A DNA stretch of 64,000 nt from contig OZ024742.1 of the NCBI GenBank assembly GCA_964016885.1, forward strand, positions 161,696,001-161,760,000, in the 5' to 3' direction. Below the pieces are notes generated by a model. The model worked only from the letters and a program-made list of their open reading frames with translations. It was not told where the DNA came from and ran no database searches. This DNA comes from Eledone cirrhosa (lineage: Eukaryota). This document shows positions 436-52,290 of the stretch, in pieces (positions within the stretch are counted from its first letter, which is position 1; each line of letters begins with the position of its first letter). Position numbers and translations under genes: made by a program.

Positions 436-816
436 TATATGGAGAATGATTCTATTTGGAATTATCTGTTTTACAAAGTAATTATTTCAAGCAAATGAGG
501 GAGCTACTCTTTAGTTGCTAGACCTGCTAAAAATAGCAAGTGGATCTTCCTGAATACAGACACTACCATCTTAATTCTTAACGTCCTGTACCACATGAAC
601 CCACGTTAGCAAGAAATTCTTGAAAAGCATAAAAGAATCACTATACTACATCCCTTTAAAAAATGAAGTCTTTATTCTAATACTGTAAATTTTCACAACA
701 ATCTGTCCACACTTAGAAATACTATAAATATTTGAATTAACAAACCTTTTTTAGACATTTTATGCTAAATTATTACAAGGTCTTAAGAGTTAAAATGACA
801 AAATGTAAAAACACGA

Positions 817-3162: not shown

Positions 3163-3595
3163 CATCATCATTATTTTTATGTCTGTTTTTCCACACTTGC
3201 ATGGGTTGGACAGGTCCTTTTCGGCACAAATCTCTCCACGTGTCGCATTCGTTCATTATCTCCAATCCTCTGTGAGTCTCAACGACTTGAGCTCAGCTCT
3301 CACTACCTCTGCCCAGGTCTTGCTTGGTCTGCTTTTACTGCAGTCTCCGTTCACTGAGATTTCCTGGCATTTCTTCACCCAGCGATCATCGTCCAAGCAT
3401 ATCACATATCCATACCAATGCAGTCTTCTCTCCTGTACACCACTTTGAATTCCTCTTAAACTCAGCTTCTCTCTCAGCTCACCCAACCTCTGCCTTTCTC
3501 TCACATTTACATTGAACATCCAGTGAAACAGGGTTGCTTCATTTCCCTCCAGTCTATGAATGTCCTCTGCAGTCACAGCCCATGTTTCACTACCA
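3163..3595 (-). mobile_element. RTE-clade LINE 3' fragment
   Basis: ORF 3256..3576 plus upstream GSETWAV codons: EDIHRLE..E...WM...RE...ELR...IQSGVQERRLHWYG...RPSKTW, a typical RTE C-terminus. Ends in (GAT)n on the minus strand. Confidence 0.85.
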
Positions 3596-4257
3596 TATAT
3601 ATATATATGTGTGTGTGTGGATTCCCAAAGTATATAAAGAGGTGACCACAGTGAAAAAAGTACTCAATACATTATGTATAGGAATATAGTTTTTATTATA
3701 GAAATTACTTCTACAGGACTAGAACTGTTTCATGAATAAAACTGTTCTAGTCCTATAGAAGTCATTTTTTAATAATAACAATAATAGTAATAATAATAAT
3801 AATAAACGGCCAAATCTCAGCCGTCGGGGTCCTGAATTTTATTAATATAATAAACATGCGCGGCCCAATATTCATAACAAGGGAAGTATGGGTTCTTTTT
3901 TATTAAATGTTTACATTTCATCTTCCCAGATAACAGAAAAGTTTAATAAACTAATTATTTCTTATCTGGGATGTATGCACAATAAAGATGCCACTATCTT
4001 CCTCTTCCTCCTCCTTCTCCTCATCATCATCATCACTCCTTCTTCTCCTCCTCCATATCATCATCATCATCATCCTCGCCAATACTGTTTAATGTCTTGT
4101 TTCCATGTTTGCTCATATGCTCCATTTTGGGCCTGGTTTTCTACAGCTAGATGCTTTTGCTATCATCAGGCATTTTTCAAGGTGATCTGGATGCATGTTG
4201 TGTGACCAGCATGGCAACATTCCTTAACACAGTGCTGTAGACAATCTTGTATACATA

Positions 4258-6664: not shown

Positions 6665-9385
6665 TTAGCTGTAGTGTTGTCGGATCTCAGGAAGCATGGA
6701 GGCCTTAAAGGATGCAGTGTCTCGACAGCTAACAACTGATGCAGGTAGTTTGTTCCATGCTTCAGCAACTCTGAGCGTGAAAAAATGTTTCTGAAAGTCA
6801 TGGGAACTGTGCTGTTTTCTTACTTTGTAGGCATGTCCACATGTGTTAGACACATGGAAATCGAAAAGGTACTCAGGGTTGTTGTTGGCAACATGGTTAA
6901 CAATTTTGTGGGTGTTTACCAAGTCAGTTGCCAGGGAAGCAAGGTGCTCAGAGTATGGTAGATGCCTGATGGAGGGTATTCGCTTGGTTGCACAGTTTCC
7001 AGGTGGTCAATGTCCTGAGCAAGATAGGGGTTCCAGACTGGTGATGCAAATTCTAAGTGTGGTCGCACCATAGCTGTATACAGCCTTAAATAGATATCTG
7101 GAGAGCGGCTGACAAAGGTCTTGCTGAGTGATGCTAAGACACCCTCGGCCCTCTTGACAATTTTAGAGACGTGCCTCGTCCAACGCAAATCGCTGCTGAC
7201 CGTAATGCCCAGGTCACGTTCACAGGAAGACTTCTTGATATTAGTGCTGTGGAGGGAGTATGTGGACGCTGGGTTTTTACTCCCAAAATGCATGGGCAGT
7301 CTGAGATCCATTGTTGCATTGTGTCCAGGTCAGACTGCAAGCAAGATCTATAGTGTTCAGGATCTGTCCTTTTTATCTCAAGGTACAGCTTGATGTCGTC
7401 TGCATACTTTAGTACTGTGGCATTCCTTAAGTTGGCATCTATGTCATTAATATATGCCACAAACAAAAGGGGGCCAAGAACAAATCCCTGTGGTACACCA
7501 GATGACATCTCATATGGTGAGGAATGCTGTCCCAGAACCGTGACTACCTCTCTTCGACTGAGAATGAAGGACTTCAACCAGTTAAAAAGATCATCCTTCA
7601 CACCCATTGCAGAGAGTTTTGCCATAAGCCTTTTGTGTGGCACAGAATTGAAGGCCTTCGCAAAGTCAAGGTAAACAACATCCACCCATGAGCCGCCATC
7701 AGTGATCCGGGTGATGTCCTCAAGAAACTCTATAAGTTGATCACAGCAGCTGGAGTTGGGGATAAATCCAAATTGTGAGGGCCGGATAAGACTGTGAGAG
7801 CTCCAGAAGTTCCAAAGTGTTTCTCTGACACAGGATTCCATCAGTTTGGCGATGCAACTAGTAAGACTGACTGGACGATAGTTCACAGGTGATGTGCGGT
7901 CACCCTTTTTGAACAGAGGAATGACACTGGCAGTTTTCCACTGTTCTGGAGTAGCACTGTTGTTCAGACAGAATTGGAAGAAGCGTGATAACTGGTGTAG
8001 AAGGAAGTACCCACCACGTTTAAGAAGCAGGTACGTAACATCATCAAGACCAGGAGAGGCATGGTTGCGTTTATTTTTTAGGTGACGTCGCAGCATTGCA
8101 GGTGTAAATTCCATGGTTGTAATAGAGTCCGGTGTGATAGGTGGTGGAGATGGTACACTCTGGTCTTCAATAGTGAAAATGCCTGCATAGCATTCAGCAA
8201 TGAGCTCTGCGCATTCCTTGGGGTCGTCAGTAACCTGGCTTGTGTGGGGATTGCAAAGAGGACTAACTGGAGAGTGAGGCCTCTGCTTTGAGTGAACATA
8301 CATGGTTCCATGCGCTGCTCAAATTGAAACACTGCCTTTTTTGTCACCTGTTTGAGGTGGTTGGACGATCTATTTCGCTTCTTCCTATTAATGTCTGATT
8401 TGTGAAGTTTGTACTCACGTTCAGCATTGCACCGTTCTTTTCTCGCAAGACGGACTTCTGCAGTCTTCCAAATTGTGCTTTTGGGATGTTTTTTCCGCTT
8501 ACGTGGCACCGATGCTGCACATGCTGTCCATATTGAGCTCAGGATGTTCTGGAGTACAGTGTTGACATCTCCAGAGTCGTAGAACTCAAGCCAGTTTGGC
8601 CGTTGCAACTCGGTGCAGTAACAGTTCCAGTCTGCTTTATTCCAGTCAAAGTGAGCAGTTTGGAGATGGTTGTGGTTCTTGTTACTGCCCATGAGGGATA
8701 GATTGGCAATGATCATAGCATGATCAGAGTCACCTAAAGGTTCCTCAGCAGTAACACTAATGACCGTTTCAGGAGTAGTGGTGAAGAGTAGGTCCAAAGT
8801 GTTGTCACCTCTCGTTGGGGAGGTGACTACCTGGGACCAACTCGAGTCCAGCACCAGCTCAAGGAAGTCATTTGCACTTGGCGGCCAACGAAAGGTCTCC
8901 CAGTCAATCTCAGGGTGATTGAAGTCACCTGCAATGAAAACATAAGTGGCTGTCTTCCTGGCAGCAGCTCTGAGGATATCACAAAGTTGAGTGTCCTGAT
9001 GGTAATTTGGGGGACGGTAAACGACTCCAAGTAGCAGTGTTGACATGGTCATACGTATATCGCAGAAAAAAACTTCCTGCTGTGATTGGTTCAAATCAGC
9101 ACAAGGAATTGCCGACAGATTTGACCGAACGTAGACCATTACACCACCACAACCACGATTAATACGGTCTTTACGAAACAGGTTGTAGTCAGTCATGCTG
9201 AAAACCCCATCACAGAGTAAGGGATATGCCCAAGTTTCCGTGACTGTAATGAAGTCCGGGTTGATACTTTTGACGTAGGAGTCAAAAAGATGAATCTTAT
9301 TGCATAGACTACGTGCATTCAAGGACAACAATTTGTACTTTGATTCCAGTCTATGATTATGTGCAGGGGATGGCAGGTTGTTCTG
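6665..9385 (-). pseudogene. LINE ORF2 (apurinic-type endonuclease + reverse transcriptase), broken by frameshifting deletions
   Basis: EN motifs LSLNARSL, VTETW, GVVYRPP, GDFN, PTRGDNTLDL, SDH (ORF 8078..9331). RT motifs YRPVSLTS, LDFAKAF, GVPQG, YADD (ORF 7134..8303). Frameshifting deletions near 8305, 7296, 6990 and 6925. Confidence 0.93.
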
Positions 9386-10142
9386 ATTTAGTTTCCCAGA
9401 GTTTTTTCAGTTTCTTTATTGTCAGTTGTTGTGGGTACAGTGTTTTCAGACTAGCTGGTGTCTCTTTTCCATGATTCGCCAGCCTTAACAAACTTCCATA
9501 TCTGCCCATCATCTCGTAGGCTGAAGCTTTCATGTTCTGCCGAGCTGCGGTTTAGGGAAGCTGCAGCACGCAACTTTGGGCGGACATCAGGTGGAAGACC
9601 AGGACGTGTTCGGAAAGCAATCCGACTTTCACGCCTAGCTTTATCAGAGGCTACAAGGTATGAACGTGCCTCAGTTGAGTTTGAAAACGACAGTCTAATT
9701 AACCTGGGTTTTGGGCCTGGTCGGCCAAGGCGTAGAGCACCCTTTGCGGGAGCACAGCCCAGGTCTTTGGATGAACTGGCAGCAAATGCCTGAAGATCAA
9801 CTATGTCTTCCGGCACACCAATGGCAATCACTTTGTGGTTTGCAGATTCAGTGGCATTCTCAATGCGTCTATGTTCAACATGAGGTACGCGGAGATTTTT
9901 TAACAAGGCACTCCGGTAAGATCCCTCATTGTGGGGTTCTACACGAACGCTTGATTTTATTTCCGCTATTTCTTGACTTAAAGCGGAAATCATTTGCCGT
10001 ATTTCCTCAAACTCCGTATTGACGGTCAGTTTTTGTTGTTGTTCTTCTCCTTCAACAGGCATGGTAGAAGACACAGTCGTCGGTTGTTGTTGTTGAAAAG
10101 TAAGGGGTGAGGAAGACATGGGTTGCTGTTGTTGATGAAGTC

Positions 10143-10406
10143 TGTAGTGGCTGAGATGGTCGCTTGGTAGCTAGCAGTTGCCTCCCCTTAACAACCCTTC
10201 AGGGAAGGGAGGCAAAAATACACCCGGACACAGCCACAGGTTCACACACTCTTTTTGGACCACGGACATGAACAGACGTGGAAAGACCAGCTCCTCAAAA
10301 TATTGACGTTGTAGGAAATTTACTAAATTATTGCATTAAATAAAATGATTGTTAGACTTGATTGTGCATTTATTTATTCGACAAAGAGAAACATCACTTT
10401 TCTTTA
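10143..10406 (+). repeat. 5' LTR of the Gypsy element
   Basis: Starts TGTAGT, ends CTTTA, contains AATAAA; matches 14942-15205. Confidence 0.95.
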
Positions 10407-10623: not shown

Positions 10624-10946
10624 TTCTCTGGAAATAGAATTTTGCTTCCAACATTCTGTGGAAATTACAAATGGAGATATTTCGTTTTCCCGCGTTCAGC
10701 CTGTCTTCTCCAATCCCAGCCATCTGATTGGCTGCATCGTGCCTCATGACGGCTTCATCACGGACACATTTTTAAATCAGCCATCTTGGATTATCTGACC
10801 ATCAATTTTCATGGAAAATGATTTTTTTTTATTATTAAAATTTTCTTTGGAATAATTTTTCTTTAAAGAAAAAAATTACCAGCAATCAGCAGCAACACCT
10901 GGCTAACTATTGACCAACACCAAAAAGTCATCAAATACGTGGCACC

Positions 10947-13900
10947 ATGAGTCAACATCATTTGCCGTCCTTCGCAGGCGACATCAAGTTGTGGTTTGCG
11001 CAGCTGGAATGTTTCTTCGAATTGACGAGGACAAAGGAACAGCATAGGCTGAAGGTCCTGATCAATGGCCTACCTGTTTCCTTGGCATTCTCGGTGAGGG
11101 ACGTTGTGACGGATTTAGACGCCGACGTTACCTACGGCTCATTAAAAAAAGAAATCCTTCGCCGAAATACCAAGTCGGTAGAGAGCCGTTTTCGGGAGTT
11201 GTTGGACGATGCTCAAATGGGTGACAGGAAGCCGAGCTCCTATTTGCGACATTTGCGGGAGTTGAGCGACTCTCAGGGGATTGACACCCCCTTCATAAAG
11301 AAACTTTTTTTCTCACGCCTACCACCAAGTGCGCAAAGAATATTGGTCAATAGTTTAGAGAAGGATTCATTAGAGCAACTTGCCGCGTCCGCGGATAGGA
11401 TACTTGAGGTGGACTCGAACAGCAATCAGCATAATGCTTATGTGGCTTCAGCTTGCGTCCCTCCACGCAGTTCTTCTGTGGCCGACGGCGCGTCGCTGAG
11501 TATTTGGCCTGTCAGTTATCTCAAAAAAAGCCCAGCCGAAGCAGATATAAATCTACGAGCAGTCAACCACACGGCCATTCGAACGTATGGGCAAATTTCG
11601 CTTCCGCTTCGGTTAAAAAATTTGCGGCGTGATTTGAGGTGGAAGTTTACTGTCGCCGACTTGCCATACGCCATTTTGGGAGCGGATTTTCTCCACCATT
11701 TTTCCTTGTTGGTGGACATTCGCAGACAACGCCTTGTTGATTCTGAAGCAGGCCTTTCTTTCGAGGGTTCAGAGCCGGACGTCGCCACCGTCAGCTCTTC
11801 CTTTTTCTTGGCTGAAGTGGGCAACCAGTATCAAAGCCTGCTACATTCATTCCCTCAGTTGACGCAGGGAAAGTTAAGAATAACTAGCCCGGATCATGCG
11901 ATTGAACACTTCATATCCACTACAGGTCCACCTGTTTTCTCACGTCCTCGAAGATTGTCTACAGAGAAGTTGAAAGCTGCACGCCTTGAATTCGACCACA
12001 TGCTGGAATTGGGAATAATTCGGCGCTCCACAAGTCCTTGGGCATCGCCTCTGCATATGGTACCTAGATCTTCTGGGGATTGGAGACCGACGGGTGACTA
12101 CCGACGCTTAAACGCGATTACTGTGCCTGACCGTTATCCAATCCCGCATTTGCAGGATTTTGCGTTGTCATTGCAGGGTTGCAGAATCTTTTCTAAGCTT
12201 GATTTGATCCGAGCTTATAACCAAATTCCGGTTAACGAGGAGGATATCCCAAAGACTGCTATTGCCACTCCTTTCGGATCGTTCGAGTTCCTCACTATGC
12301 CTTTCGGCCTTAGAAACGCTGCAAGTACCTTCCAACGATTTATGGATGATATTACTCGGGGCCTGGATTTTGTGTACACGTATATCGACGACGTGTTGAT
12401 TGCTAGTTCTTCCCCTCAGCAGCATTCGAAGCATCTGGATCTCGTATTTCGACGTTTACAGAGATATAATGTTCGAATTAATGCTTCCAAGTGTGTTTTC
12501 GGCTCGACTTCACTAACATTTTTAGGCCATCTGATTGACGCCGACGGTATTCGACCTCTTCCTGAGAAGGTTAAGGCAGTATCGGATTTGCCTCCGCCAA
12601 GTTCACTGCGTCAATTGCGTCAATTCCCGGGCCTTGTAAATTTTTATAGGCGATTCGTACCTGGTTGTTCCAAATTGCTGTTCTCGTTGACAGAGATTTT
12701 TAAGGGTTGCCGGCGTAAGAATATGGACATTTCCTTAAATGAAACGCAGCTTGATGATTTTAAAAAAGTGAAAAAGGCGTTAGCGAACGCGTCTTTGCTC
12801 GTCCACCCAGTACCCAACGCCGAGCTATCGCTCTGTGTTGATGCTTCGGATAGCGCCGTGGGCGCAGTCTTACAGCAGAAGGGTGATGGGGTACAGCAAC
12901 CACTCGAGTTCTTTTCGAGGAAGTTAAAGCCTGCAGAAACTCGCTATAGCACCTTTGGAAGGGAGCTATTAGCAATTTATTTATCAGTGAAACATTTTGC
13001 TCATGTACTTGAAGGTAGAACATTCACCATTTTCACTGATCATAAACCCTTGACGTTTGCTCTTCGAACTAAGGCAGACAAATACTCGCCCAGAGAAACG
13101 AGACATCTGGACTTCATCTCACAGTTCACGAACGACATTCAACATATTCCGGGTTCTTTGAATACAGCGGCCGATGCGCTGTCTCGCCTGCCGATCGCAT
13201 CGATTTCGTCTTCCGAGGAGATAGATTTACATCGAATGGCAGCTGCCCAACCCACTCTCGAATCGTTGGATGTTACATCGCCAGAGTTTGTGCATTGCAA
13301 ACTGAAATACATTTCGATCTCAACTGCTGACGGACAGATACTGTGTGATGTTTCGTTGGACTCACCACGACCTCTAGTCCCAGTGGAACATCGACGAACT
13401 GCGTTTCTCGCTTTACATGGCATTTCTCACCCAGGAGTATCAGCCTCAGTAAAACTCATAACAGCCAGATTTTTCTGGCCTGGTATGAGACGTGACATTG
13501 CTGCTTGGTGTCGTTCCTGTGTCGCTTGCCAACAAGCGAAAGTTCATAGACATGTTAAGGCTCCTCTCGGAACCTTCACCTGCCCCGATGCAAGATTTCG
13601 TCACATTCATGTGGACATCGTCGGCCCGTGGCCGGTTAGTCGTGGTTTTTCGTATCTTTTGACGATAGTTGACCGTTTTTCGCGTTGGCCTGAAGCCGTC
13701 CCTATAACAGATATCACCGCCGAAACCACAGCCCGTACCCTCGTATCTTCGTGGATCGCTCGTTTCGGTGTACCAACCACCATAACAACGGATCGTGGTC
13801 GTCAATTCGAGTCTAACCTCTTCCGAGAGCTAACTCAAATCCTGGGGGCTACTCGAATAAGAACCACGGCTTACCACCCAGCCTCAAACGGAATGGTGGA

Positions 13901-14528
13901 AAGATTCCACAGGCAGCTCAAAGCCTCCTTAAGGGCTTCCATGGACTCTTCACGTTGGAGCGAGTACCTACCCATTGTATTGTTGGGTATTCGGTCGACG
14001 GTAAAGGTGGACCTTGAGTTCTCCTCTGCCGAATTAGTTTATGGTACGCCTCTGGCGTTACCGGGGCAAATGCTGGCCCCTTTTGACCTGACTTCGCAGG
14101 ACCCCGCTTCCTACGTGTCCCGGCTTCACTCTTATTTCAAGGATCTACCACCGATGGGCACTAGGAAGCAGACTGTAAAAACTGCCGTCCCAAGGGATAT
14201 TGCCTTGTGGACCCATGTGTTCGTTAGAGACGACGCCGTGAGACCCCCTCTTCAACGGCCGTACTCTGGACCCTATCGTGTGCTTGCTCGCACAGACAAA
14301 CATTTCACACTGGACATTCGGGGTTCCAGGGAAACGGTTTCCGTTGATCGTCTCAAACGAGCAAACCTGGACAATGACACAATGACACTTGAAACTCAAA
14401 TGCCCCCCTCTTTTTCTTCGCCACACAGGCCTATTTCTTCCCCTCCCCCACCATCAACACACAGAACTACGACCCGTTCTGGGCGAAGGGTGCATTGGCC
14501 CCGTAAGCTATGCAGTAATATAAACTGA
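10947..14528 (+). CDS. Gypsy gag-pol polyprotein (gag fragment, protease remnant, RT, RNase H, integrase), 1193 aa
   Basis: Gag [21 protein letters not shown]; protease C-half ILGADFL; [28 protein letters not shown]; RNase [26 protein letters not shown]; integrase [30 protein letters not shown]; C-terminal GPY motif. Confidence 0.95.
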
Positions 14529-30014: not shown

Positions 30015-30895
30015 TCATCATCATCATCATCAACGTTTAACGTCCGTGTTCCACGCTTGCATGGGTTTGGACGGGGGTAGTCCCACTTGAGGCAAGAGTG
30101 ATTGTCTTGCTCGCATAGGACTGTCTGGCAGGTTTTCTACAGTTGGATGCCCTTCCTAACACCAACCACATTTACAGTGTGGGTCTGGGAGGTTTTTACC
30201 GTGTTGCCTACACGGCCACATTACAGCGTGGACTGTGTGTTTTTTTGTCGTGACACCTACACGATCTCATTTGTTTTGGCCTCGATGGCGCGGCACCAAC
30301 ATAACTTTACATAGAACGGGGTGGTGTGGATGGGGTGGTGGTGGTGGGACGGGGTGTATTTTGTTAGAGATGCCTACTGGCTGGAGTAGGTTTTACTATA
30401 TATTTAGGTAAGGCGGGTCTTCTCTGTTACTGAGTACTGCCAAAGGTCTCGGTCCAGTGACATTGTCTTGGAGAGGTGTAAGTGTGTGATGTCGGAGTTT
30501 ATCAGCTCGTCCCAGGTTTTTCTAGGTCTGCCTATTCCGTGACTACCGTCTATCTTTATTGCCCTGCACTTTGTTATACAGCTATCGACTTTCATGCGCA
30601 TCACGTGTCCATACCAACGTAGCCTTCTCTCGAGTAAACAACATCTGATCCCTCTTATCTCTAATTTTTTCCTTAGTTCGTTTATGCTTTGCCGTTCACG
30701 TATATTACTGTTACACATCCAGCGGAGCATGCAAGCTTCGTTCCTCTCTAGTCTGCGTATATCCTCTGCACACAATGCCCAGGTCTCACTGCCATGCAGC
30801 ATTGCTGTTCGTATGCAGGCATCGTACAACCTGCCTTTCATTTTTAGGGAGAACCCTTTAGCAGCTAATAGTGGTATAAGCTCTCTGAACTTTTT

Positions 30896-30931
<36 letters not shown>

Positions 30932-33900
30932 CACTGCTTACCATAGAAATAACTCGTTGGATTGCTTTTGTACTGATTCCATCACCATAACTTTCTCCTT
31001 CAGAAATTTCTTCTACTAAAGTGGAACCTAGATATTTCAGGTAAAATGTCAATCCATCATTGACGGTATCAAGGTTCTCACCCCATTTATCGTGTAATTC
31101 TGTAAGATAAAATAGAAAAATAATTAAATAGATAATTACATCACTTGAAAATCAATATAAATACACTTATAATTATAAATATACATATATGTATTAAACC
31201 TTTTGATACCAAACCACCTGAAACTGCTCCTGGTTTTACAATATAAAACTGTTTAGTTGAAATTCTTCATATTTATCTAAAAATCTTCCATCATAATTTT
31301 ATGTAAGAACCTTTGTTAAGTTCCAAACACCAACTAGGATATCTTGTAAATATATGTTTAAGGATTTCTTATAGATAATATGACATAGGCTTGTGGATGC
31401 ATACATTACAAATCTAAACACTTTAAAATAAGCAGCTTTGTGCCAAAGAATCAGGCGCAGTTTTAGGTTTGGTACCAAAAGGGTTAAAAATCTAGAGAAG
31501 AAAATTATGCAGAAAGAGAGGAATGCTTGATATGAAGAAGCAAAACCTATTCCCTGTTTACCCTCCAAACTTTATGAATGAGTAAGGAGCGAACAGAACT
31601 TGTTAATATTTCCCAAAAAGTGGGGACGGGGAGTTATTGTATAACTATCTATTTATATTTCCTTCAAATTGACTGCCTTCTTCCTCCATGAAGTAGGTCT
31701 ACTGTATATATTACTGTATATATAAAGTGTCACAACACCTTATGGAATGTAAAAAAACAAAAACAAACAAAAACCGATTTCATTAAAATCCTGGATTATC
31801 AAATACTTTAAAAACCCTTTATACTAATTTTAGGTAATTTTATTTCTGAAATGCACGATTTATTATTATACAAGAAGTTAATTAAAGTGACAATTTATGC
31901 ATGATAGGAGTGGGAGGGTGTGTGAGGAAACGAAAATCACATGATACAAATCGATCTTATAAACCTCTAAATCTAAAATTCCTTTAATTATCATTTTGAT
32001 TTGATACAGATTTACCTCAGCATTCTTATGAGTTCTTGAGTAAAATACTATTTTGATAAAACAGGCATCAAATTTTATAGTTATTGCTATTCCTGATTAC
32101 AAAATAAGCACTTGAACTCGATACCTCTTAAATGCTTTTACCATATTACAGAAAATGGGTGGCATATTTTTCTGTTAAAGTAAGAGACCCCTAACGAAAT
32201 GCATCACTTCCCCCATTCCACAAGCTGTTAATGCTTTTAATAACATTAAAATCGACATGGAAAATATTTGTCTTCATACTATAGAAGTCCGCCCGGTTTA
32301 CAATTGAGATCTACGTGTCAAACACAGTGTCACCCAGGTGTGAGAAAATTGATGCATTGTGAATAGGGAAAAAAAAAACCGCTAGATATAGTCCGAACTA
32401 GAACCTGTATTTTATAATCACACGGATCAAGACCTCGTAAAAGCTATTCATAGAAGGCATCTCATTGAATGTTGTACGTGGTGTCTAAACAGTCGATAGC
32501 TTAATATAAGTAGTAGTCCATTATGATGACAACACCCGTAAGGATGAAAGGCAAAGTTAACCTCAGCGGCATTTGAACTCAGACCATAAAGGGTCAAAGA
32601 GTTACGGCTCTTTATGGTCTGAGTTCAAATCCCGCCGATGTTAACTTTGCTTTTCATCCTTACGGGGTAGATAAAATAAAGTACCAGTAATACACTGGGA
32701 TAATTGCTGGCCTTGTGCCAAAAGTAGAAACAATTATGAAGATAACACCTGTTAAACCGTTGTTTAATGCCTCAATTCTTGCCTATGAAACTGCAAAATT
32801 TTGTAAAATAATGAAGAATTGTGCAAAGCCAGAACTACACTTTACAACTCAAAATTGGGTAATGAAAACCAATCATACAATATTCCCCTATCCTATCCTC
32901 GGTTGCCCAGTGGGACGCCCCTAGTAATTTCGATTCCATAAGTAGTAGAAAACCAGGCGATACTCATACAATATGGAAATGAGTATTGATAGTTTTAATA
33001 TCATGGAATCTTCCAGAATCTGGTTGGAGTACTTTAATTCCACCTTATCTTTCAACTGCTACTAACGAAATTTTTCATGGTCGTTTTTTTCCTTTATATA
33101 TATTGTTTTCCTGTAGCCGTGTCTAATCTGTTGGCTAAATTATCCCAGCCCGGTCCTTATAAAAAAACCCAAACATGTATAAGCATACAAAGTGATCCTT
33201 TAATAGTGGAAACTGAACTACTGGAATGTAATAATAAATTTGTTTGTCACAATGTCCAAACATCTTCAGGAGTTGGATTTACCAATTGCTGGCTCAATTC
33301 TAGGTCTTTGAGCATTAGATAATTTCTGATTACTGCTTACGATATCTAATTCTATCCATCAACGTACCCAGCTTTTGTACTTTTCTTACCTAATTTTAAT
33401 ACTTTTATTTACATAAAGCTGTCACATCATATTTCTATGTTTGCTTATAGTTGTCGAGTACTTTATTATAAATATATTTGTCTTTTATAAAATATAAAAA
33501 CATACTAGGCCTACCTATTAGAATTTTTGAAAAAATATTTCTCCCATTGAATTTTTTTTCCGAACTAATTTTTCTGGATTTCTATCAATTTTACAAAACG
33601 TTCACAATGAACTAAAATCTTAATTTCAGAATATTTAATGCTATTTTTTCAAAAATGCAAATATCTACAATTATTTAAAGCAACAATAGTAGTGTATACG
33701 TCATTTATATACCCTTCCAATATACAGTCCAACACAATTGAGATACATGGTAGTTTATGTAAATTGAAACTAAGGATTATCCAACACGAACACCAACTAA
33801 GCATGAAATTATCTGGAATTTCATAAGGGGTGGGGGAAGCAGTCAGTAAAAAAAACTCGTGACAATATCAATGACATATCGATTTCTTATACAGAAGCAG

Positions 33901-40225: not shown

Positions 40226-41068
40226 TTTGTTAATTGACAATTGTTAATATTTGACAATTTGCAGAGGAAATATATTCCTCACCGTATATTATTTAATAAT
40301 TATGTTACAAGTAGAACAAGTAAGCTTGTTGGTAATAGTGGTGGGGTGGTAAAGGGTGTTGTTTATAGTTGTCGGCGGTGATGCTCTATTTGTTGTGTTG
40401 CTGTAGCTGATGCTGCTTATGTTGTTGTTTAGTCCCAAGTTATACCCCTGATCCAATCCAAGCGTGACCACCCCGTCATTTATTTTTGTGTACCCATGAC
40501 TACAATGTTCAACATGTCTTTCCTCATTTAAGATGGTAGGATATATTTATGAGGGAGATTTGGCTATTATTTCTAGCAAGTCGAGTGACCACGTCGGGTG
40601 TCTCCTGTTGACTTAATGTTGCTTGGTACTAGATATGTAGGTGGTATTGATAATATTTTTAGGGTTTTGGTAAAAAAAGGAGGTGATTAATCGGGTAATA
40701 ATCAATATTGTTTTCTATTATAATTTTATTGATTATCCTTAGTTTTAAGATCATAGTCAACTTCCAGTAATTTCCGTGTTTGAAAGTGATAATTAAAAAA
40801 AAAACAATCATTATATTCACCTTCGAAATTGTATCTCTGCAAAATATGCATCTATATATATATAAAGTTATTAATAAAGTTATGAGGAAACCAAGCCATG
40901 GGGCTCACTCTACTGTAGTTATGTATGTGTGTACATACACACATACACGCTTGTATGTATGTATGTATGTATGTATGTATGTATGTATGTATGTATGTAT
41001 GTATGTATGTATGAATGTATGTATGTATGTATGTATGTATGTATGTATGTATGTATGTATGTATGTAT

Positions 41069-41476
41069 GAGAGATGACCCCTTAGCCTTTGTCAAGGCAG
41101 AATTCTAGGAGAAGGAAAGCTCTGATATAACACCTGCAACCCTGATGGTATCCAATGATGTTGACTTGTTCTTCTTTTTGGTAAATATCATCTTGGTTAA
41201 GAGAGTGGGACTGGCTTTGTGCAGTGCCTTTGCTCACTATAAAAGCTTCACGGCACAGGCATTGCTTTATATCTGGAGATCTCTCTGCACTTGTCGTCAC
41301 ATGGTACCATCGGCCCAGCACTATGTGTCAATAATTGTCACAGGTGTACTGTTTGAACCAGAGTTTTCAAGTCGCTGGCTGGACTAAAAAGTCACACTCG
41401 TTCAGCGCATCGGTAGGGGTTCTCCTACATAGATATAAAGTAGTGGCCCTACTCGAAAACGAGTTGGCAGCCACCA
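41069..41476 (+). mobile_element. 5'-truncated copy of the ~604-bp non-autonomous RTE-like element
   Basis: Near-identical to the 3' two-thirds of 41560..42163; followed by (TGTA)n. Confidence 0.8.
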
Positions 41477-41559
41477 TGTATGTATGTATGTATGTATGTA
41501 TGTATGTATGTATGTATGTATGTATGTATGTATGTATGTATGTATGTATGTATGTATGT

Positions 41560-42163
41560 CAGGTCACCAGTTGGTGCTACTGGTAACATGTATCCCAGTA
41601 CAACCTGTCTCATGGTCGGGTCGTTGGCGACTAAACTGGCAACACCACCAAGGTTTCTTGGTGAGGAGGGTGACTTTGGACATCCTGCAGGACTAAAAAC
41701 AAAACCTGTCAAAGAGCAAAGGAGCTCTTAAGAGTCAATGGCCATCCAAAATCACCGGGAGAGATGACCCCTTAGCCTTTGTCAAGGCAGAATTCTAGGA
41801 GAAGGAAAACTCTGATATAACACCTGCAACCCTGATGGTATCCAATGATGTTGACTTGTTTTTCTTTTTGGTAAATATCATCTTGGTTAAGAGAGTGGGA
41901 CTGGCTTTGTGCAGTGCCTTTGCTCACTATAAAAGCTTCACGGCACAGGCATTGCTTTATATCTGGAGATCTCTCTGCACTTGTCACATGGTACCATGGG
42001 CCCAGCACTATGTGTCAATAATTGTCACAAGTGTAGTGTTTGTACCAGAGTTTTCAAGTCGCTGGCTGGACTAAAAAGTCACACTCGTTCAGCGCATCGG
42101 TAGGAGTTCTCCTACATGGATATAAAGTAGTGGCCGTACTCGAAAACGAGTTGGCAGCCACCA
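41560..42163 (+). mobile_element. ~604-bp non-coding, non-autonomous RTE-like retroelement
   Basis: Contains CTAGGAGAAGGAAAACTCTGA, recalled as typical of RTE 5' UTRs. 3' stem-loop GTGGC..ACTCG-AAAA-CGAGT..GCCAC, then (TGTA)n. No credible ORF. Confidence 0.7.
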
Positions 42164-42193
42164 TGTATGTATGTATGTATGTATGTATGTATG

Positions 42194-43711
42194 TTCTTCT
42201 GGTTTTATAATTTCACAAAGTTTTACCAATAGAGAGAGAGTCGGTTTCTAACATGGACACAAGACTCTCTCATTGGAATTTACACAACATCAACTAGGTA
42301 GATATGTATGTATGCATGCATGCATGTGTAGATATGGATGTATATGCTTTGTATCTGTACATGTGTATATGCAGTTATTAGATGCAACATTTTTGGAATA
42401 TTTTACATATTTTTACTGTTCTATTAATGGATTGTACTTGTAGTTTCCTAACTAGTTGTGTTCTTTCTGTTCCTGTGAAGCCTAGCTTCTCAAGATTTGT
42501 ATTGAGGCAGTTACTAACATACCCCAGTGCCCCAATAATCACAGGCATAAATCTGAAGGTGTAATCAGGGTGGAGTATCTGCAGATTTCTCATCAGTTCT
42601 GCATAAATATTCTCCTTTTCACTAATCTTTGATATCATATTGGCATCTGCTGGGCAGCTAATTTCCACTACTGTGCATGTTTTCTTCTCCCTGTCCCATA
42701 TCATAATATCTGGTCTGTGCCTGCATTTTATTGGGGTTTTTACTGGAACATTCCACCAGTACTCTTTCATATTATGTACATGGATGTCTTCCACATTGTT
42801 GTAGCTTTTAATGTGTTTATTATCGGGGCTATCTTTTTTACGAACTGCATTGTACAGTGTTTTGGCCACTACATCATGCCTCATAGGTAGATAGTACCGC
42901 GATGACATCTTTGGACAGTTGCTGATGACATGGGTGATATCCTCGATGTTAGTTCTGCAGAGTCTGCACTTGTTATCACATCTAGGTATTTTCCTGCATC
43001 CCTATCTCTTTTGTGAATCAGGTATTTCGTGCTAATCTCCTGTTCTTGGATTGCAAAAGCGTATCCTTCAAAGTGGGAGCTAATATAGCGGTTGTTGGTC
43101 CAAGATAGACTACTTTCCTTATCTATATTACTCTCACTCTGGAGCTTCCTGGCAACATATCCATGTATGATTTTTTGCTGATATGCAGGCAATTTTTCAT
43201 CCATGGATTCACTGCGATACTGCTGAACGACATCCCTGGGTGTGAGTTTTTGATTATCACACAGGGAATATCTCTCAAGGAGTTCCTTCCAAACTCTCAT
43301 GATCTTATCTGTTTCATGCAGATAGACTTGCTCGAGAAGTGGGCTTCTACGCTTTGAGGTTCGTAGATGTTGTCGGAGAGATATGATGCGACATTCAAAT
43401 GTTGTCTGGACTGATGTTAGGCCTCTGCCTCCCTGCTTACGTTTCAAGTAAAGGCGGTCTATGTCACTGTTGATGTGGAAGTTTCCGGTGTTGTTCAGTA
43501 TTTTTCGAGTTCCAACATCAACTGCTCGGATTTCGTCTATCGTCCAATTGAGTATTCCAAACGTTGGTGTTAGGACAGGCACAGCAAACACATTGTGAGC
43601 CACTGTTTTGTTTTGCGCAGAGAGTTCCGATGACCAGATCTTTCTTAATCGGGTGTAGTATTCCCTGGTTACGCGTTCTTTATTACAGATACCATTATAG
43701 GATATGTTCTC

Positions 43712-43713
<2 letters not shown>
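42194..43713 (-). mobile_element. R4-clade (Dong/R4/Rex6-like) non-LTR retrotransposon, 5'-truncated, with restriction-like endonuclease
   Basis: EYYTRLRKIWSSEL..NK..AHNVFAVPVL...RLYLKRKQGGRGL, FAIQEQ, CCHC finger CRLC-x8-H-x4-C, RHD, RPDIMIWD, VVEISCP, K..KE.IY, PVIIGALG. One frameshift near 42985. 3' UTR extends to 42194. Confidence 0.9.
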
Positions 43714-43742
<29 letters not shown>

Positions 43743-43821
43743 TGTATGTATGTATGTATGTATGTATGTATGTATGTATGTATGTATGTATGTATGTATG
43801 TATGTATGTATGTATGTATGT

Positions 43822-44423
43822 CAGGTCACCAGTTGGTGCTACTGGTAACATGTATCCCAGTACAACCTGTCTCATGGTCGGGTCGTTGGCGACTAAACTG
43901 GCAACCCCACCAAGGTTTCTTGGTGAGGAGGGTGACTTTGGACATCCTGCAGGACTAAAAACAAAACCTGTCAAAGAGCAAAGGAGCTCTTAAGAGTCAA
44001 TGGCCATCCAAAATCACAGGGAGAGATGACTCCTTAGCCTTTGTCAAGGCAGAATTCTAGGAGAAGGAAAACTCTGATATAACACCTGCAACCGGTATCC
44101 AATGATGTTGACTTGTTCTTCTTTTTGGTAAATATCATATTGGTTAAGAGAGTGGGACTGGCTTTGTGCAGTGCCTTTGCTCACTATAAAAGCTTCACGG
44201 CACAGGCATTGCTTTATATCTGGAGATTTCTCTGCACTTGTCGTCACATGGTACCATGGGTCTAGCACTATGTGTCAATAATTGTCACAAGTGTAGTGTT
44301 TGTACCAGAGTTTTCAAGTCGCTGGCTGGACTAAAGAGTCACACTCGTTTAGCGCATCAGTAGGGGTTCTCCTACATGGATATAAAGTAGTGGCCGTACT
44401 CGAAAACGAGTTGGCAGCCACCA
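43822..44423 (+). mobile_element. Second full copy of the ~604-bp non-autonomous RTE-like element
   Basis: Near-identical to 41560..42163; flanked by (TATG)n on both sides. Confidence 0.8.
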
Positions 44424-44480
44424 TGTATGTATGTATGTATGTATGTATGTATGTATGTATGTATGTATGTATGTATGTAT

Positions 44481-44781
44481 TTCGAGTATATTTTTTTGAC
44501 CGGCCACCTTCCTGGTGGCAAGGCTGTAAAAGAACAGAAATTGTCATCCCTTGAATCGCAAGAATGTTTTGCAAATTTTGAAGGTGCCAGCTATCGCAGC
44601 CATTTGTAGACTATGAATTAGGGAGCTGCGCTTTTTGTCCGCAAATCCAAGTTCAGTCATACTTTGGTCCAAGCCGGTTGGTATATAACCCGTAGCTCCA
44701 ATAATGATGGGTATGAAGCTCAAGGTGTATCTTGGATACAGGATTTGTAAACTCCTCATCAATGGTCCGTAGATGTCCCCC
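44481..44781 (-). mobile_element. 3' tip of a second, distinct R4-clade retrotransposon
   Basis: DIYGPLMRSLQILYP.Y....IPIIIGATGYIP...ELGF...LQMAAIAGTFKICKTFLRF aligns with the C-terminus of 42378..42908 but is diverged; the 3' UTR is different. Confidence 0.85.
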
Positions 44782-46615
44782 TGTATGTATGTATGTATGT
44801 ATGTATGTATGTTTGTATGTATGTATGTATGTATGTATGTATGTATGTATGTATGTATGTATGTATTAAAACGAAGGATTACCTTTTTATTTAATATTTC
44901 AACACGATTAGAAAACATTAAATCATTAATATAGCTCTAATTAAGTTAAGACCCATTGCTAAGAATTCAAAAATAAAAAAAATAAAAAATCAACTTAAAC
45001 TGAAAGTTAACATTATTTTGTTAGTAGTTTATTTATTATTTTGCAGTTTGGCTTTTCCGGTTATTTTGACATTTCCATTAAGACTAACTTCCTGAAACAG
45101 TATTCTGTTTGTAGTAGCAGCGTTAACAAAATCAAAAGGCCCCTTCTTCGCTATCACTAGCGGAATTTTTATTTTATCTTACAACACGTGGGACGTGTTA
45201 ACGTATTTACAAGCAAGAGAGAAAAAAAAAAAGCGCAGGAGAAACAAAAAAATGATCACCTTGTTTCTTTTAAAACTTTTATTGGTCGAGGTTCGGAACA
45301 ATAAAGCTCTTTAGTTTCTTCACAATGAAATTCTTTTAATTTAATCTTACAAGATGTTTTAGCTGCATTTGATCATACAAACTAAGTAGTTTTAATATTA
45401 TTATTATCATCATAGTTCTGTTGTTGTTGTTGCTGTCAGATAGCCAAATCACGTACGTCAGGCAACATTGAAACAAGAACAGAATGATAAATATAGCGGT
45501 TCCTCAGTGTACGTCATACGTTGTTAGAAGAAAAATGAAAACTATTCTCATACAATGAATTCCCTTTGAGAGAGAGAGAGAGATTGTCATCTGTTAAATT
45601 CTCTTCAGTGCACAAATAGTTTTTTTTATTAGATAAATAGAAGTTCACACAAAGAGTCGCAGAATCCACAAGGCGGGCTTACAATATGCAGCAACTTTCC
45701 CATTGACTTGGCTCTTAGTACTTGCACTGCTAATGCACCCCATGCTGGCTCAGTCATCAAATCTGGGCGTTCTTAGTTAGGCTGTCTTGGCTGGAATTTA
45801 GCTAGGGTTTTTATTACTCTTTTATAAATTCCATTCACGTTTAGCATGATTTATAGGAATATTAAATCGTCCTCCATTACTTGACTTCCCGGGAAGGTTG
45901 AAAAGCAAAGTTGACCTCGGCAGGATTTTGACTTAGAATGTGAATCGGCTAAAATTAAACGCTACTCTTAAAACTATGCCAATCTACCCAATCTACTGTA
46001 TAATAAGTAAAGAGCTAAAAATGTAGTAATGACGAAAGGTTTAATCAAAGCTTTACTGCATTAAGAAAAGGTGATTCTCAAGACCAATGCTTACATTTGG
46101 TATGACTGGTAGGGGCGACAACTCTTAATTTCAAGCAAAGTTAGTTGACAACACCGGAATGTCAATTGCTCTTAGATCTCTTCATCAAAATAGTGTCTTT
46201 ATTCTATTTGCTAGATCCATAATAATTCTTTCTATCATTAGCAGAAGGGCAGCAATTTTGGGGAAAGGAAAATCGATTATGTCGACACCTGTACTTAACT
46301 GGTACTTTATTTTATCGACCTCAGCAGGAGGAAACGCAGGGATTTGAACTCAGAAAGTAAAGAGTCGGAACAAACAATCTTTTTAGGATTTATCCTATGC
46401 TCTAACGCTCTTCAGATCCGTAGCAATAAAATTACTATATATAAGCACTTTAGTCATGGAAAACAATTAGTAAAGAAAGCACTCATGCTCAATGTGACGA
46501 GCGAGAAAACTTAAAATAACCAAAACTCTGCCTTCATTGAAGCTATGTGCTTCAGAATGCTAATGACTGTTCTAGTGTAGGCCATATGAATATTTATTGT
46601 ACATATATGCATATA

Positions 46616-48253: not shown

Positions 48254-48289
<36 letters not shown>

Positions 48290-48950
48290 AACACATACAC
48301 ATACATACACACACAAACATGCATGCATACACATACATACATACAAACAAACATACATACACATACATAAATACAAACACACATATAAATACATACACAC
48401 ATATACATACATACACACACATACATACCATGCATAGATATACACACACAAAGATAGACGTTGAAGATAGACGTTAAACGATGATGAAGATGATGAAACA
48501 TGCATACATACATGATGAAGATGATGAAACATGTATACACACACACACACATACATTCACACATACATAAATACATACATACATAAATACAAACATACAC
48601 AAACAAACATGCATACATACATACGTAAATACATACATATACATACATGCATACATAAATACATACATGCACACACAAACATGCATGCATACATATACAT
48701 AGATTAATACACATACATACGTAAACTCATACATAAATACATACATACACACATACATACATAAATACATACATAAATACACATGCATACATACACATGC
48801 ATACATACACATACATTCATACACACATACATAAATACACACACATACAAACACACACACATACATAAATACATGCATACATACACATATATACATACAT
48901 ACACATATTCACATAATACATATATAAATATATATATACACACATATACA
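48170..48950. repeat. Low-complexity (CA/TA/CATA) compound microsatellite
   Basis: Direct reading. Confidence 0.9.
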
Positions 48951-49810: not shown

Positions 49811-50336
49811 GGTGTTAGATGCTTAAAGCGTCCGTATGCGGTAGGCCGTATGAGCACTCAATGCTCTCATAGAGCAGAGTATATCACAAAAAAAAATCTG
49901 CTTCGTAAAATTAAGACGTATCTGAGGACCTCTCGATTTTCAGAGTCAGGTTCGATCATCAAATCGATCGTGCCTCGAGCTGGTCGCCAGAGAAATGATT
50001 GTAATATGTCCAATAAATTCCATTCGTCGCAACACTGATTCTCTTTTTTTCTTCTGTGATATATATATATTTACGTACATATGTATATGTACATATACAA
50101 ACACCACATACAACACACATGTATAAATAGATAAACACATACATACATGTATATACAAACACACCACATACAATACACACATATACATACATAAACACAT
50201 ACACATATATATAAATAAACAAACCACATACAAAACACACATAAATATACATAAACAGATACATATATATATATATATATGTATATATATTTATAAAAAC
50301 ACACCACGTAGAACACACACACACACACACACATAT

Positions 50337-52290
50337 ATGTTCTGGAAGTATGTTCACTCAAAGCAGAGACCTCACTCTCCAGTTGGTCCTCTTCACAATC
50401 CCCACACAAGCCAGGTTACTGACGACCCCAAGGAATGCGCAGAGCTCATTGCTGAATGCTATGCAGGAATTTTCACTATTGAAGACCAGAGTGTACCGTC
50501 TCCACCACCTATGACACTGGATTCTATTATAACCATGGAATTTACACCTACAATGCTGCGACGTCACCTAAAACATAAACGCAACCATGCCTCTCCTGGT
50601 TTTGATGGTGTTACGTACCTGCTTCTTAAACGTGGTGGGTACTTACTTCTGCACCAGCTATCACGCTTCTTCCAATTCTGTCTGGACAACGGTGCTACTC
50701 CAGAACAGTGGAAAACTGCTAGTGTCATTCCTATGTTCAAAAAGGGTGACCGCACATCACCTGTGACCTATCGTTCAGTCAGTCTTACTAACTGCATTGC
50801 CAAACTGATGGAATCCTGTGTCAGAGAAACTCTTTGGAACTTCTGGAACTCTCACAGTCTTATCCAGCCCTCGCAATTTGGATTTATCCCCAACTCCAGC
50901 TGCTGTGATCAACTTATCGAGTTTCTTTAAGACATCACCCGGATCAATGATGGCGGCTCATGGGTGGATGTTGTTTACCTTGACTTTGCGAAAGCTTTCA
51001 ATTCTGTGCCACACAAAATGCTTATGCCAAAACTCTCTGCAATGGGTGTGAAGGATGATCTTTTTAACTGGTTGAAGTCCTTCATTCTCAGTCGAAGAGA
51101 GGTAGTCACGGTTCTGGGACAGCATTCCTCACCATATGAGATGTCATCTGGTGTACCACAGGGATCTGTTCTTGTCCCCCTTTTGTTTGTGGCATATATT
51201 AATGACATAGATGCCAACTTAAAGAATGCCACAATACTAAAGTACGAAAACGACATCAAGCTGTACCTTAAGATAAAAAGGTCAGATCCTGAACATTATA
51301 GATCTTGCTTGCAGTCTGACCTGGACACAATGTAACAATGGATCTCAGACTGGCAACTCAAGCTAGCTGTGGACAAGTGCACCACCATGCATTTTGGGAG
51401 TAAAAACCCAGCGTCCACATACTCCCTCCACAGCACTAATATCAAGAATCAAGCTAGCTGTGGACAAGTGCACCACCATGCATTTTGGGAGTAAAAACCC
51501 AGCGTCCACATACTCCCTCCACAGCACTAATATCAAGAGTCTTCTTGTGAACGTGACCTGGGCATTACGGTCAGCAGCGATTTGCGTTGGACGAAGCACG
51601 TCTCTAAAATTGTCAAGAGGGCCGAGGGTGTCTTAGCATCACTCAGCAAGACCTTTGTTAGCTGCTCTCCAGCTATCTATTTAAGGCTGTACATGGCTAT
51701 GGTGCGGCCACACTTAGAATTTGTATCACCAGTCTGGAACCCCTATCTTGCTCAGAACATTGACCGCCTGGAAACTGTTCAGAGATGTGCAACCAAGCAA
51801 ATACCCTCCATCAGGCATCTACCATACTCTGAATGCCTTGCTTCCCTGGGCATGGATACATTGAAGCTCCGACGCCTGGCAACTGACTTGGTAAACACCC
51901 AGAAAATTATTAATCATCTTGGCAACAATAACCCTGAGTACCTTTTTGATTTCCATGTGTCTAACACACGTGGGCATGCTCACAAAGTCAGAAAACAGCA
52001 CAGCTCCCATGACTTTCGGAAACATTTTTTCACGCTCAGAGTTGCTGAAGCATGGAACAAACTACCTGCATCAGTTGTTAGCTGTCGAGACACTGCATCC
52101 TTTAAAACCTCCATGGTTCCTGAGATTCGCCAACACTACACCTAATGTTCCCCCTCCATACACACATGTATATCATGACTCATACACTATTCACTTCCCT
52201 GACATTTGTATATTATTCTATGTACTATACATGCACCTTTGACGAGTTGTAGTGCACCTGAGCACTTTACACAATAATTTCATTATTATT
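50337..52290 (+). mobile_element. 5'-truncated CR1-clade LINE with stops and an internal ~91-bp tandem duplication
   Basis: ORFs 50337..50930, 50964..51335 and 51582..52145 carry RT motifs (YADD mutated to YEND). Duplication 51358-51448 / 51449-51538. Family 3' tail present. Confidence 0.95.

What the first reader, a model, noticed from the sequence alone, without database searches (positions are those of the whole stretch)
40920..44866. A (TATG)n microsatellite acting as a landing pad for two R4-clade retrotransposon families
Seen: one (TATG)n array is cut into six tracts by five insertions. Two of them (42194-43713 and 44481-44781) are R4-clade elements with diverged C-terminal proteins and different 3' UTRs. 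Both lie on the minus strand with (CATA)n at both junctions. The longer copy has the CCHC finger and PD..D restriction-like endonuclease. Known: R4-clade endonucleases can be site-specific (R4 in 26S/28S rDNA, Dong in TAA repeats), and ACAY-repeat targeting is known for R1-clade Waldo. Inference: these are TACA-repeat-specific R4 families, a specificity I do not know as described for this clade, so novelty is unverified. Such an endonuclease would be a candidate sequence-specific integration tool.
Basis: partly seen in the sequence, partly recalled or inferred. Interest (0 to 1): 0.75.

Follow-up and report, generated by a model that had tools for sequence, protein, structure and literature searches.

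The report
Retrotransposons that target CATA microsatellites
In this probably octopus genome, two families of jumping genes sit mostly inside CATA repeats and face the same way, likely because their own enzyme cuts repeats that were already there, while a related family in the same genome sits in the classic TAA repeat, so this is probably a new target sequence for a known group.

Summary
Observation confirmed: six (TATG)n tracts, five inserts. Two inserts belong to two restriction-like-endonuclease LINE families (A about 4.1 kb; B 4.2 kb, with near-identical young copies and 5 of 10 full-length copies intact). Among fetched copies, sense-strand CATA repeats lie at 40 of 41 full-length and 86 of 109 truncated 5' junctions and 91 of 100 3' junctions. 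None is antisense; the background rate is 0.9% and a CR1 control gave 0 of 19. Locus-specific repeat variants recur on both flanks (p=0.0002), so the arrays predate insertion and the tail-only explanation fails. A third R4/Dong-like family in the same genome sits in (TAA)n (30 of 30 3' ends, no CATA). A and B fall in a lineage separate from TAA-Dong and 28S-R4 (100/100). Corrections: the other three inserts are RTE-derived and on the opposite strand, and the short copy lacks 17 nt of its 3' end. Endonuclease-determined specificity is inferred, not shown. This scan found the same thing three times on other DNA of this genome. Verdict: new variant of a known kind.

The parts
40952..41069 (+). 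(TATG)n tract 1, 29.5 units
41070..41475 (+). Family C copy, 5'-truncated (positions ~198-603 of the 603-bp unit); non-autonomous RTE-derived element
41476..41559 (+). (TATG)n tract 2, 21 units
41560..42162 (+). Family C full-length copy (603 bp); its 3' part keeps a remnant of the RTE C-terminal C2H2 finger (CSVCTRVFKSLAGLKSHTRSAH)
42163..42194 (+). (TATG)n tract 3, 8 units; 3' flank of the family A copy
42195..43712 (-). Family A RLE LINE, 5'-truncated (last ~1.55 kb of ~4.1 kb): end of the RT/thumb region, CCHC finger, PD..D-E endonuclease, 3' UTR; frameshifted
43713..43821 (+). (TATG)n tract 4, 27 units; 5' flank of the family A copy
43822..44422 (+). Family C full-length copy (601 bp)
44423..44480 (+). 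(TATG)n tract 5, 14.5 units; 3' flank of the family B copy
44481..44781 (-). Family B RLE LINE fragment (positions 3906-4206 of 4223), 5'-truncated and lacking the last 17 nt; 96.7% identical to the young full-length subfamily
44782..44866 (+). (TATG)n tract 6, 21 units; 5' flank of the family B copy

Best explanation
Two R4/Dong-related LINE families (A, B) sit in (CATA)n microsatellites in one fixed orientation, likely because their single protein recognises and nicks the TATG strand of an array that was probably already there and copies its RNA from that nick. Inferred mechanism, by analogy with R2/Dong: the protein (predicted N-terminal Myb-like helices, RT, CCHC finger, PD..D-E endonuclease) nicks the TATG strand. 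It primes target-primed reverse transcription on the RNA 3' end with a few bases of pairing, and joins the cDNA 5' end, full-length or truncated, to the upstream repeat by 1-3 nt of microhomology. Each insertion leaves CATA tracts on both sides, so the array stays a target and gathers further A, B and opposite-strand RTE-derived (C) copies. That produces the five-insert pad seen in the window. Shown: flank composition, orientation, a fixed 3' phase, microhomology, and coexistence with a TAA-associated relative. Inferred: that arrays predate insertion (strong support), and that the protein rather than RNA pairing chooses the site (moderate support).
For: Junction counts in loci L001-L190, de-duplicated, with no rows dropped. 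Two tandem sense CATA units at the 5' junction: A full-length 30 of 30, A truncated 37 of 53, B full-length 10 of 11, B truncated 49 of 56. At the 3' junction: A 50 of 54, B 41 of 46. Antisense 0 in every class; background 0.9%. (TA)n arrays are far commoner than (CATA)n in the sample (588 vs 18 in 400 kb) yet rarely flank A or B. CR1 control: 0 of 19 truncation junctions, read by eye from 30 loci. Pre-existing array: locus-specific variant units recur on both sides of young B copies (mean cosine 0.26 vs 0.11 shuffled, p=0.0002, n=29). The perfect downstream run is 11 nt or less in 9 of those 29, and one begins ACAC, so there is no long fixed tail. 5' microhomology averages 1.8 nt at 35 B junctions vs 0.83 simulated (p=2.5e-8). 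Internal control: family T (1216-aa ORF, 29-31% identical to A and B) has TAA at 30 of 30 3' ends and 17 of 24 5' ends, CATA at none. Raw reads of two other samples show (GTAT)n loose ends at B truncation points, so this is not an assembly artefact. The intact B protein models well (pLDDT 85.7) and its best structural matches are R2 TPRT complexes.
Against: There is no biochemical data and no empty allele was seen. Copies were picked as best BLAST hits, which favours young, intact ones: among 6 A/B pieces met in unselected DNA, only 2 had CATA at the 5' side, one had (TA)n and one abutted a C element. 16 of 53 truncated A and 7 of 56 truncated B junctions lack the repeat; many are internal breaks or rearranged pieces, but some are (TA)n or unique DNA. 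The first four downstream bases are nearly always ACAT, so a short RNA tail that pairs with the target is not excluded. The unrelated RTE-derived family C uses the same arrays (and (TA)n), which shows that such arrays can attract elements with a different endonuclease type. Upstream perfect runs are longer than downstream ones (median 49 vs 21 nt, p=0.004), so part of the 5' repeat may be made during insertion.
Confidence: 0.72

Rival explanations
1. Tail-guided targeting: the element RNA ends in ACAU repeats read through from its own 3' flank. A weakly specific nick becomes productive only where that tail can pair with an exposed TATG strand, so specificity comes from RNA-DNA pairing, not from the endonuclease.
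For: Fixed ACAT phase at 3' junctions (A: 37 of 54 read AGAAGA|ACATACAT). Each family's target equals its downstream flank (T: TAA). An unrelated RTE-derived family uses the same array from the other strand.
Against: Young copies show locus-specific bases from position 3-6 after the 3' end. 3'-truncated copies that lack the normal end (the window's short copy, and the B copy upstream in L268) still lie in CATA arrays, although one such copy (L054) does not.
Confidence: 0.2
2. The elements make the repeats themselves: (CATA)n is a 3' tail, and the 5' repeat is added by reiterative synthesis or by template jumps onto another RNA's tail, so pads are concatemers rather than targets.
For: Upstream perfect runs are longer than downstream ones. 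Head-to-tail A/B clusters are common.
Against: Locus-specific variants (CAGA, CATGCG, TA-rich mosaics) are shared by both flanks. The window pad mixes both strands, which template jumping cannot make. CR1, which has its own ATT tail, shows no such 5' repeat.
Confidence: 0.05
3. Passive accumulation: insertion is unspecific and copies survive in, or recombine into, repeat-rich regions.
For: The genome is microsatellite-rich. Passive accumulation has been proposed for Drosophila Waldo (PMC3812793, passage).
Against: Strict orientation (0 antisense), base-precise junctions in copies 99.4-99.9% identical, 0.9% background, CR1 0 of 19, and T and A/B splitting cleanly between TAA and CATA.
Confidence: 0.03

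Closest known systems
Dong (R4 clade; Bombyx Dong, DongAg, snail DongBg, ostracod Dong1/2)
   Same: Single ORF with RT, CCHC and RLE. N-terminal W..Y..G..RL..W..HP helical motif shared with Bombyx and Pediculus relatives. Microsatellite target in a fixed orientation. Dong-R4 is already known as an abundant, recently active LINE group in Octopus vulgaris (5 families, 1129 recent insertions; PMC13282606, first third of the text and passages read) and in O. bimaculoides (PMC9115989, passages).
   Different: [quoted passage not shown] A and B use (CATA)n and lie in a separate lineage, about 30% identical to TAA-flanked elements, including family T of the same genome.
R4 of nematodes (28S rDNA-specific)
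   Same: Same architecture. 28S-flanked relatives were recovered and group with the R4/Dong radiation.
   Different: R4 has a single rDNA site and, from recall, a 13-bp target duplication. In A/B no informative duplication was seen, and imperfect flanks limit it to 4-9 nt in 7 of the 28 young copies checked.
Waldo (R1 clade; WaldoAg1/2, WaldoFs1)
   Same: Targets ACAY microsatellites, which include ACAT (PMC3812793, passage).
   Different: Waldo has an APE-type endonuclease and belongs to a different clade. A and B have an RLE, so the shared target would be convergent.
Togen and some HERO families
   Same: RLE elements that target microsatellites ((TG)n for Togen; PMC4640811, passages).
   Different: Different clade and repeat. 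Not compared by sequence here.
Bipartite non-autonomous RTE elements (Bov-A, RTESINE; PMC5786205, passages)
   Same: Family C: non-coding, fixed ends, 5'-truncation pattern, with a 3' remnant of an RTE zinc finger and a 3' terminus like that of autonomous RTE copies in L004/L245/L042.
   Different: It sits in TATG/TA arrays on the strand opposite to A and B. Its direct autonomous parent was not identified, and the RTE nature of its 5' part is recalled, not tested.

Membership tests
R4 clade (R4/Dong) | Single long ORF with RT followed by CCHC finger and PD-(D/E)xK restriction-like endonuclease | tested here: met
   B: 1169-aa ORF, RVT_1 at 475-726, C980/C983/H992/C997, P1059-D1060...E-I-S; fold closest to R2 TPRT complexes. 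A is the same, read across two stops in L098.
R4 clade (R4/Dong) | No N-terminal zinc fingers, but a diverged Myb/SANT-like domain (PMC7998251) | tested here: inconclusive
   No zinc finger seen. A three-helix unit at residues 22-74 (pLDDT 82-89) aligns with Bombyx and Pediculus relatives. Pfam finds Myb only in the 28S-flanked relative L331 (E=0.007), not in B.
R4 clade (R4/Dong) | RT phylogeny groups with R4 and Dong to the exclusion of R2, NeSL, HERO, CRE | tested here: inconclusive
   Closest relatives are TAA-flanked Dong-like and 28S-flanked R4-like elements. Scores to R2 are far lower (about 100 bits vs about 490). Trees had only CR1-type and unclassified outgroups, with no R2, NeSL or HERO rows; the root position is weak (89.6/72).
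R4 clade (R4/Dong) | Insertion into a multicopy target in fixed orientation | tested here: met
Dong in the strict sense | (TAA)n target | tested here: not met
   A and B flanks are CATA. Family T of the same genome meets it.
Dong in the strict sense | Monophyly with TAA-targeting Dong elements | tested here: not met
   A, B, an Argonauta protein and 9 unnamed relatives are split from all TAA- and 28S-flanked rows by a 100/100 branch (29 rows; SH-aLRT 100, 73 rows, quick tree).
R4 clade (R4/Dong) | [quoted passage not shown] | tested here: inconclusive
   No Rfam ribozyme match in L174 or L184. Plain folding cannot show the pseudoknot.
R4 clade (R4/Dong) | Sequence-specific nicking by the RLE | not testable with these tools
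   needs biochemistry
Waldo (R1 clade) | APE endonuclease, two ORFs | tested here: not met
   single ORF with a C-terminal RLE; no APE domain by Pfam
Non-autonomous RTE derivative (family C) | 3' part homologous to an autonomous RTE; 5'-truncation pattern on the same strand | tested here: met
   Zinc-finger remnant and 3' terminus match RTE copies. Partial copies mostly keep position 603 and start at variable places.
Non-autonomous RTE derivative (family C) | 5' part derived from an RTE 5' UTR | not tested
   resemblance recalled only; parent element not found

The most novel reading that the evidence does not exclude
A and B represent a distinct, widespread lineage of the R4 radiation, neither Dong proper nor R4, that switched its endonuclease or Myb specificity from (TAA)n to (CATA)n. 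In one genome, TAA-specific and CATA-specific relatives with intact, probably active copies partition the microsatellites, and an unrelated RTE lineage uses the same repeat from the other strand. Insertion lengthens the upstream tract, so the elements grow their own landing pads. Families B and T would be a ready natural pair for mapping how RLE retrotransposons change target.
Probability: 0.45. Interest if true: 0.68.

Novelty: new variant of a known kind. Interest (0 to 1): 0.52.

Why it matters
How RLE retrotransposons change target site is an open question for evolution and for gene-insertion engineering. Here two related, apparently intact proteins in one genome (B: CATA; T: TAA) give a direct domain-swap test. 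It would also explain where one of the most active LINE groups of octopus genomes lands and how composite repeat clusters form. As an insertion tool it is less attractive than rDNA-specific R2, because CATA/TATG arrays are dispersed (recalled as common in vertebrate genomes too).

Tried and rejected
Empty allele: contigs and RAD reads were laid on window 43825-45600 and on a young B locus. The tool skips the repeats and no joint across an insert appeared, so this is uninformative. No RNA holder was listed, which is no evidence on expression. Target-site duplication: no convincing case in 28 young copies; the one flagged (L179, 9 nt) lies in a mosaic. Ribozyme: Rfam gave only microsatellite-driven miRNA-like matches below threshold. 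Targets of the closest foreign relatives: only one lineage member came with DNA (L281), and its contig ends 267 nt after the ORF with no array; viral contigs gave nothing; the protein atlas gave no result. The idea that C seeds the arrays by a TATG tail was considered and not adopted: 18 of 70 C 3' flanks are TA-type without two tandem TATG units, so C looks like a co-tenant. In one search the row labelled L245_ownRTE is a B copy (my mislabel). Literature: eight searches returned results on this clade, target or host, plus two on related topics; none listed a CATA/ACAT target for R4/Dong. Not readable here: Kojima and Fujiwara 2004, Xiong and Eickbush 1993, Biedler 2015, Fell 2025 and its supplements, Repbase, Dfam. 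Any of these could already record this target.
Full report
Observation. The window lies in a 3.0-Gb genome, inferred to be an octopus or close relative from its size and from the nearest named protein being from Argonauta. Six TATG-period tracts are separated by five inserts. The insert at 42195-43712 (-) is the 3' 1.5 kb of an RLE LINE with a CCHC finger and RPD..D..EI motif, broken by a 1-bp deletion near 42992. The insert at 44481-44781 (-) is the end of a second family. The other three inserts are one 603-bp family, C.

Families. In 400 kb of evenly spaced DNA there were 3 A, 3 B and 14 C-like pieces. Family A is about 4.1 kb; none of 10 fetched copies with a full 5' end had an intact ORF. 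Family B is 4.2 kb; 5 of 10 fetched full-length copies carry an intact 1174-codon frame (1169 aa from the first Met), and young copies are mostly 99.4-99.9% identical to the reference copy. A and B proteins are 44% identical. The window's B copy lacks the last 17 nt present in 28 of the 29 other copies.

Junction test. In loci L001-L190, de-duplicated and with no rows dropped, I scored two tandem sense-strand CATA units within 20 nt of the 5' junction. They were present in 30 of 30 full-length A, 37 of 53 truncated A, 10 of 11 full-length B and 49 of 56 truncated B copies. Within 24 nt of the 3' end they were present in 50 of 54 A and 41 of 46 B copies. Antisense repeats scored 0 throughout, and background is 1431 of 159,680 positions. 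Many misses are internal breaks or rearranged pieces, but some are true (TA)n or unique flanks. (TA)n arrays outnumber (CATA)n arrays 588 to 18 in the sample. A CR1 family from the same window showed CATA at 0 of 19 truncation junctions; of 30 loci, 9 ran past my reference, 1 was the window copy and 1 was unreadable. Against this, best-hit selection favours young copies: only 2 of 6 A/B pieces in unselected DNA had CATA at the 5' side.

Were the arrays there first? In 29 young B copies with both flanks, non-CATA variant units are shared between the upstream and downstream flank of the same copy more than between shuffled pairs (0.26 vs 0.11, p=0.0002). Clear cases are L267, L270, L276, L172 and L179. 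The downstream perfect run is 11 nt or less in 9 of 29, which argues against a long fixed tail. Upstream perfect runs are longer than downstream ones (median 49 vs 21 nt, p=0.004); this may mean cutting near the 3' end of arrays or expansion during 5' joining, and is unexplained. At 35 B truncation junctions (filtered to at least 95% identity and a clean upstream repeat) microhomology averages 1.8 nt against 0.83 simulated (p=2.5e-8), with no single phase. No informative target duplication was found. Raw reads of two other samples show (GTAT)n loose ends at B truncation points, so the pattern is not an assembly artefact. No empty allele could be read.

Internal control. A search with a Pediculus relative revealed a third family, T, with a 1216-aa ORF and about 99% identical copies. 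T has TAA at 30 of 30 3' ends and 17 of 24 readable 5' ends, and CATA at none. It is 29-31% identical to A and B. Related elements in one genome thus split between two repeats.

Placement. B models with pLDDT 85.7 and best matches R2 TPRT structures, but by sequence R2 is far more distant than Dong-like proteins. Of 43 foreign loci that reached the ORF end, 21 had TAA runs downstream and 4 had rRNA-like flanks; Rfam confirmed LSU for the one tested, and that three of them sit at the R4 site is recalled. None had CATA directly at the end. In a 29-row tree, A, B, an Argonauta protein and 9 unnamed relatives are separated from all TAA- and 28S-flanked rows by a 100/100 branch. A and B are not sisters, and the root (CR1 outgroups) is weakly placed within the R4/Dong radiation (same grouping in the 73-row quick tree). 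R2, NeSL and HERO rows were not available. So it works like Dong and belongs probably to the R4 clade, but it is not Dong in the strict sense.

Family C. Partial copies mostly keep the + strand 3' end and vary at the 5' end. The 3' part encodes a remnant of the C2H2 finger and ends like autonomous RTE copies in L004, L245 and L042. It lies in TATG or TA arrays: 26 of 28 truncated 5' flanks are TATG; of 70 3' flanks, 48 are TATG and 18 TA. It faces opposite to A and B and is best read as a co-tenant.

Mechanism. Shown: target composition, orientation, 3' phase, microhomology, family-specific repeats. Inferred: prior existence of the arrays (strong), and nicking of the TATG strand by the element's own protein followed by TPRT (by analogy with R2 and Dong; about 0.7). 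The main rival is guidance by a short RNA tail (about 0.2).

Literature. PMC3812793 (passages): Dong targets TAA, Waldo targets ACAY. PMC7998251 (passages, one supplement search): R4/Dong has an N-terminal Myb-like domain and TAA targets in most insects, molluscs and cnidarians. PMC4640811 (passages): RLE clades are mostly target-specific; Togen targets TG. PMC13282606 (first third and passages) and PMC9115989 (passages): Dong-R4 is known and recently active in Octopus vulgaris, and a full-length Dong exists in O. bimaculoides; a word search of the first found no mention of a target, and the passages seen in the second give none. PMC3774820, PMC5786205 and PMC13580325: passages. Three earlier notes of this scan describe the same pattern on other DNA of this genome. 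I saw them after forming my reading and do not count them as support.

Verdict. A real and well-supported target preference; a new variant of a known kind; interest 0.52.

Noticed in passing
G000 loci L388-L417: Family T: a young, apparently intact TAA-flanked Dong-type LINE (about 4.9 kb, 1216-aa ORF) with its own head-to-tail clusters in (TAA)n.
   Followed up: yes
window 30939-31076 (-): Short exon-like frame (GLTFYLKYLGSTLVEE...) ending at a GT, recalled as PTB/PID-domain-like; no Pfam hit. If real, the repeat pad may lie in an intron or upstream of this gene.
   Followed up: partly
window 10914-14528 (+): 1204-aa open frame of a Ty3/gypsy-type LTR retroelement (gag-protease-RT-integrase-like motifs by eye).
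   Followed up: no
window 809-2446 (+), 6916-10170 (-), 50127-52145 (+): Three copies of a CR1-type LINE with an ATT tail; used as the negative control.
   Followed up: yes
window 30404-30937 (-) and 3256-3663 (-): 5'-truncated RTE-type fragments whose 5' junctions abut (AT)n runs; possibly another microsatellite-associated family.
   Followed up: partly
L004:1-1430, L245:1-1530: Autonomous RTE with three C-terminal C2H2 fingers and a 3' UTR made of (GT)n, (ATT)n, (AT)n and T-rich runs before a short conserved terminus followed by (ATGT)n; it faces opposite to A and B.
   Followed up: partly
L271, L100; family A 3' UTR: Family A carries a degenerate CATA-like stretch inside its own 3' UTR, and short 190-230 bp A 3'-end copies occur in tandem; possibly a SINE-like derivative.
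   Followed up: no
L361-L387 (genome contigs): Several bacterial genome records contain eukaryote-type LINEs, some flanked by 28S-like rRNA sequence; likely host contamination of those assemblies.
   Followed up: no
L375: R4-related element followed by rRNA-like sequence different from that of the three other rRNA-flanked elements; possibly a different rDNA target site.
   Followed up: no
window 48257-48946: Long degenerate (ATAC)n region with no A or B insertion found by my BLAST of the five inserts; imperfect arrays may be poor targets.
   Followed up: no
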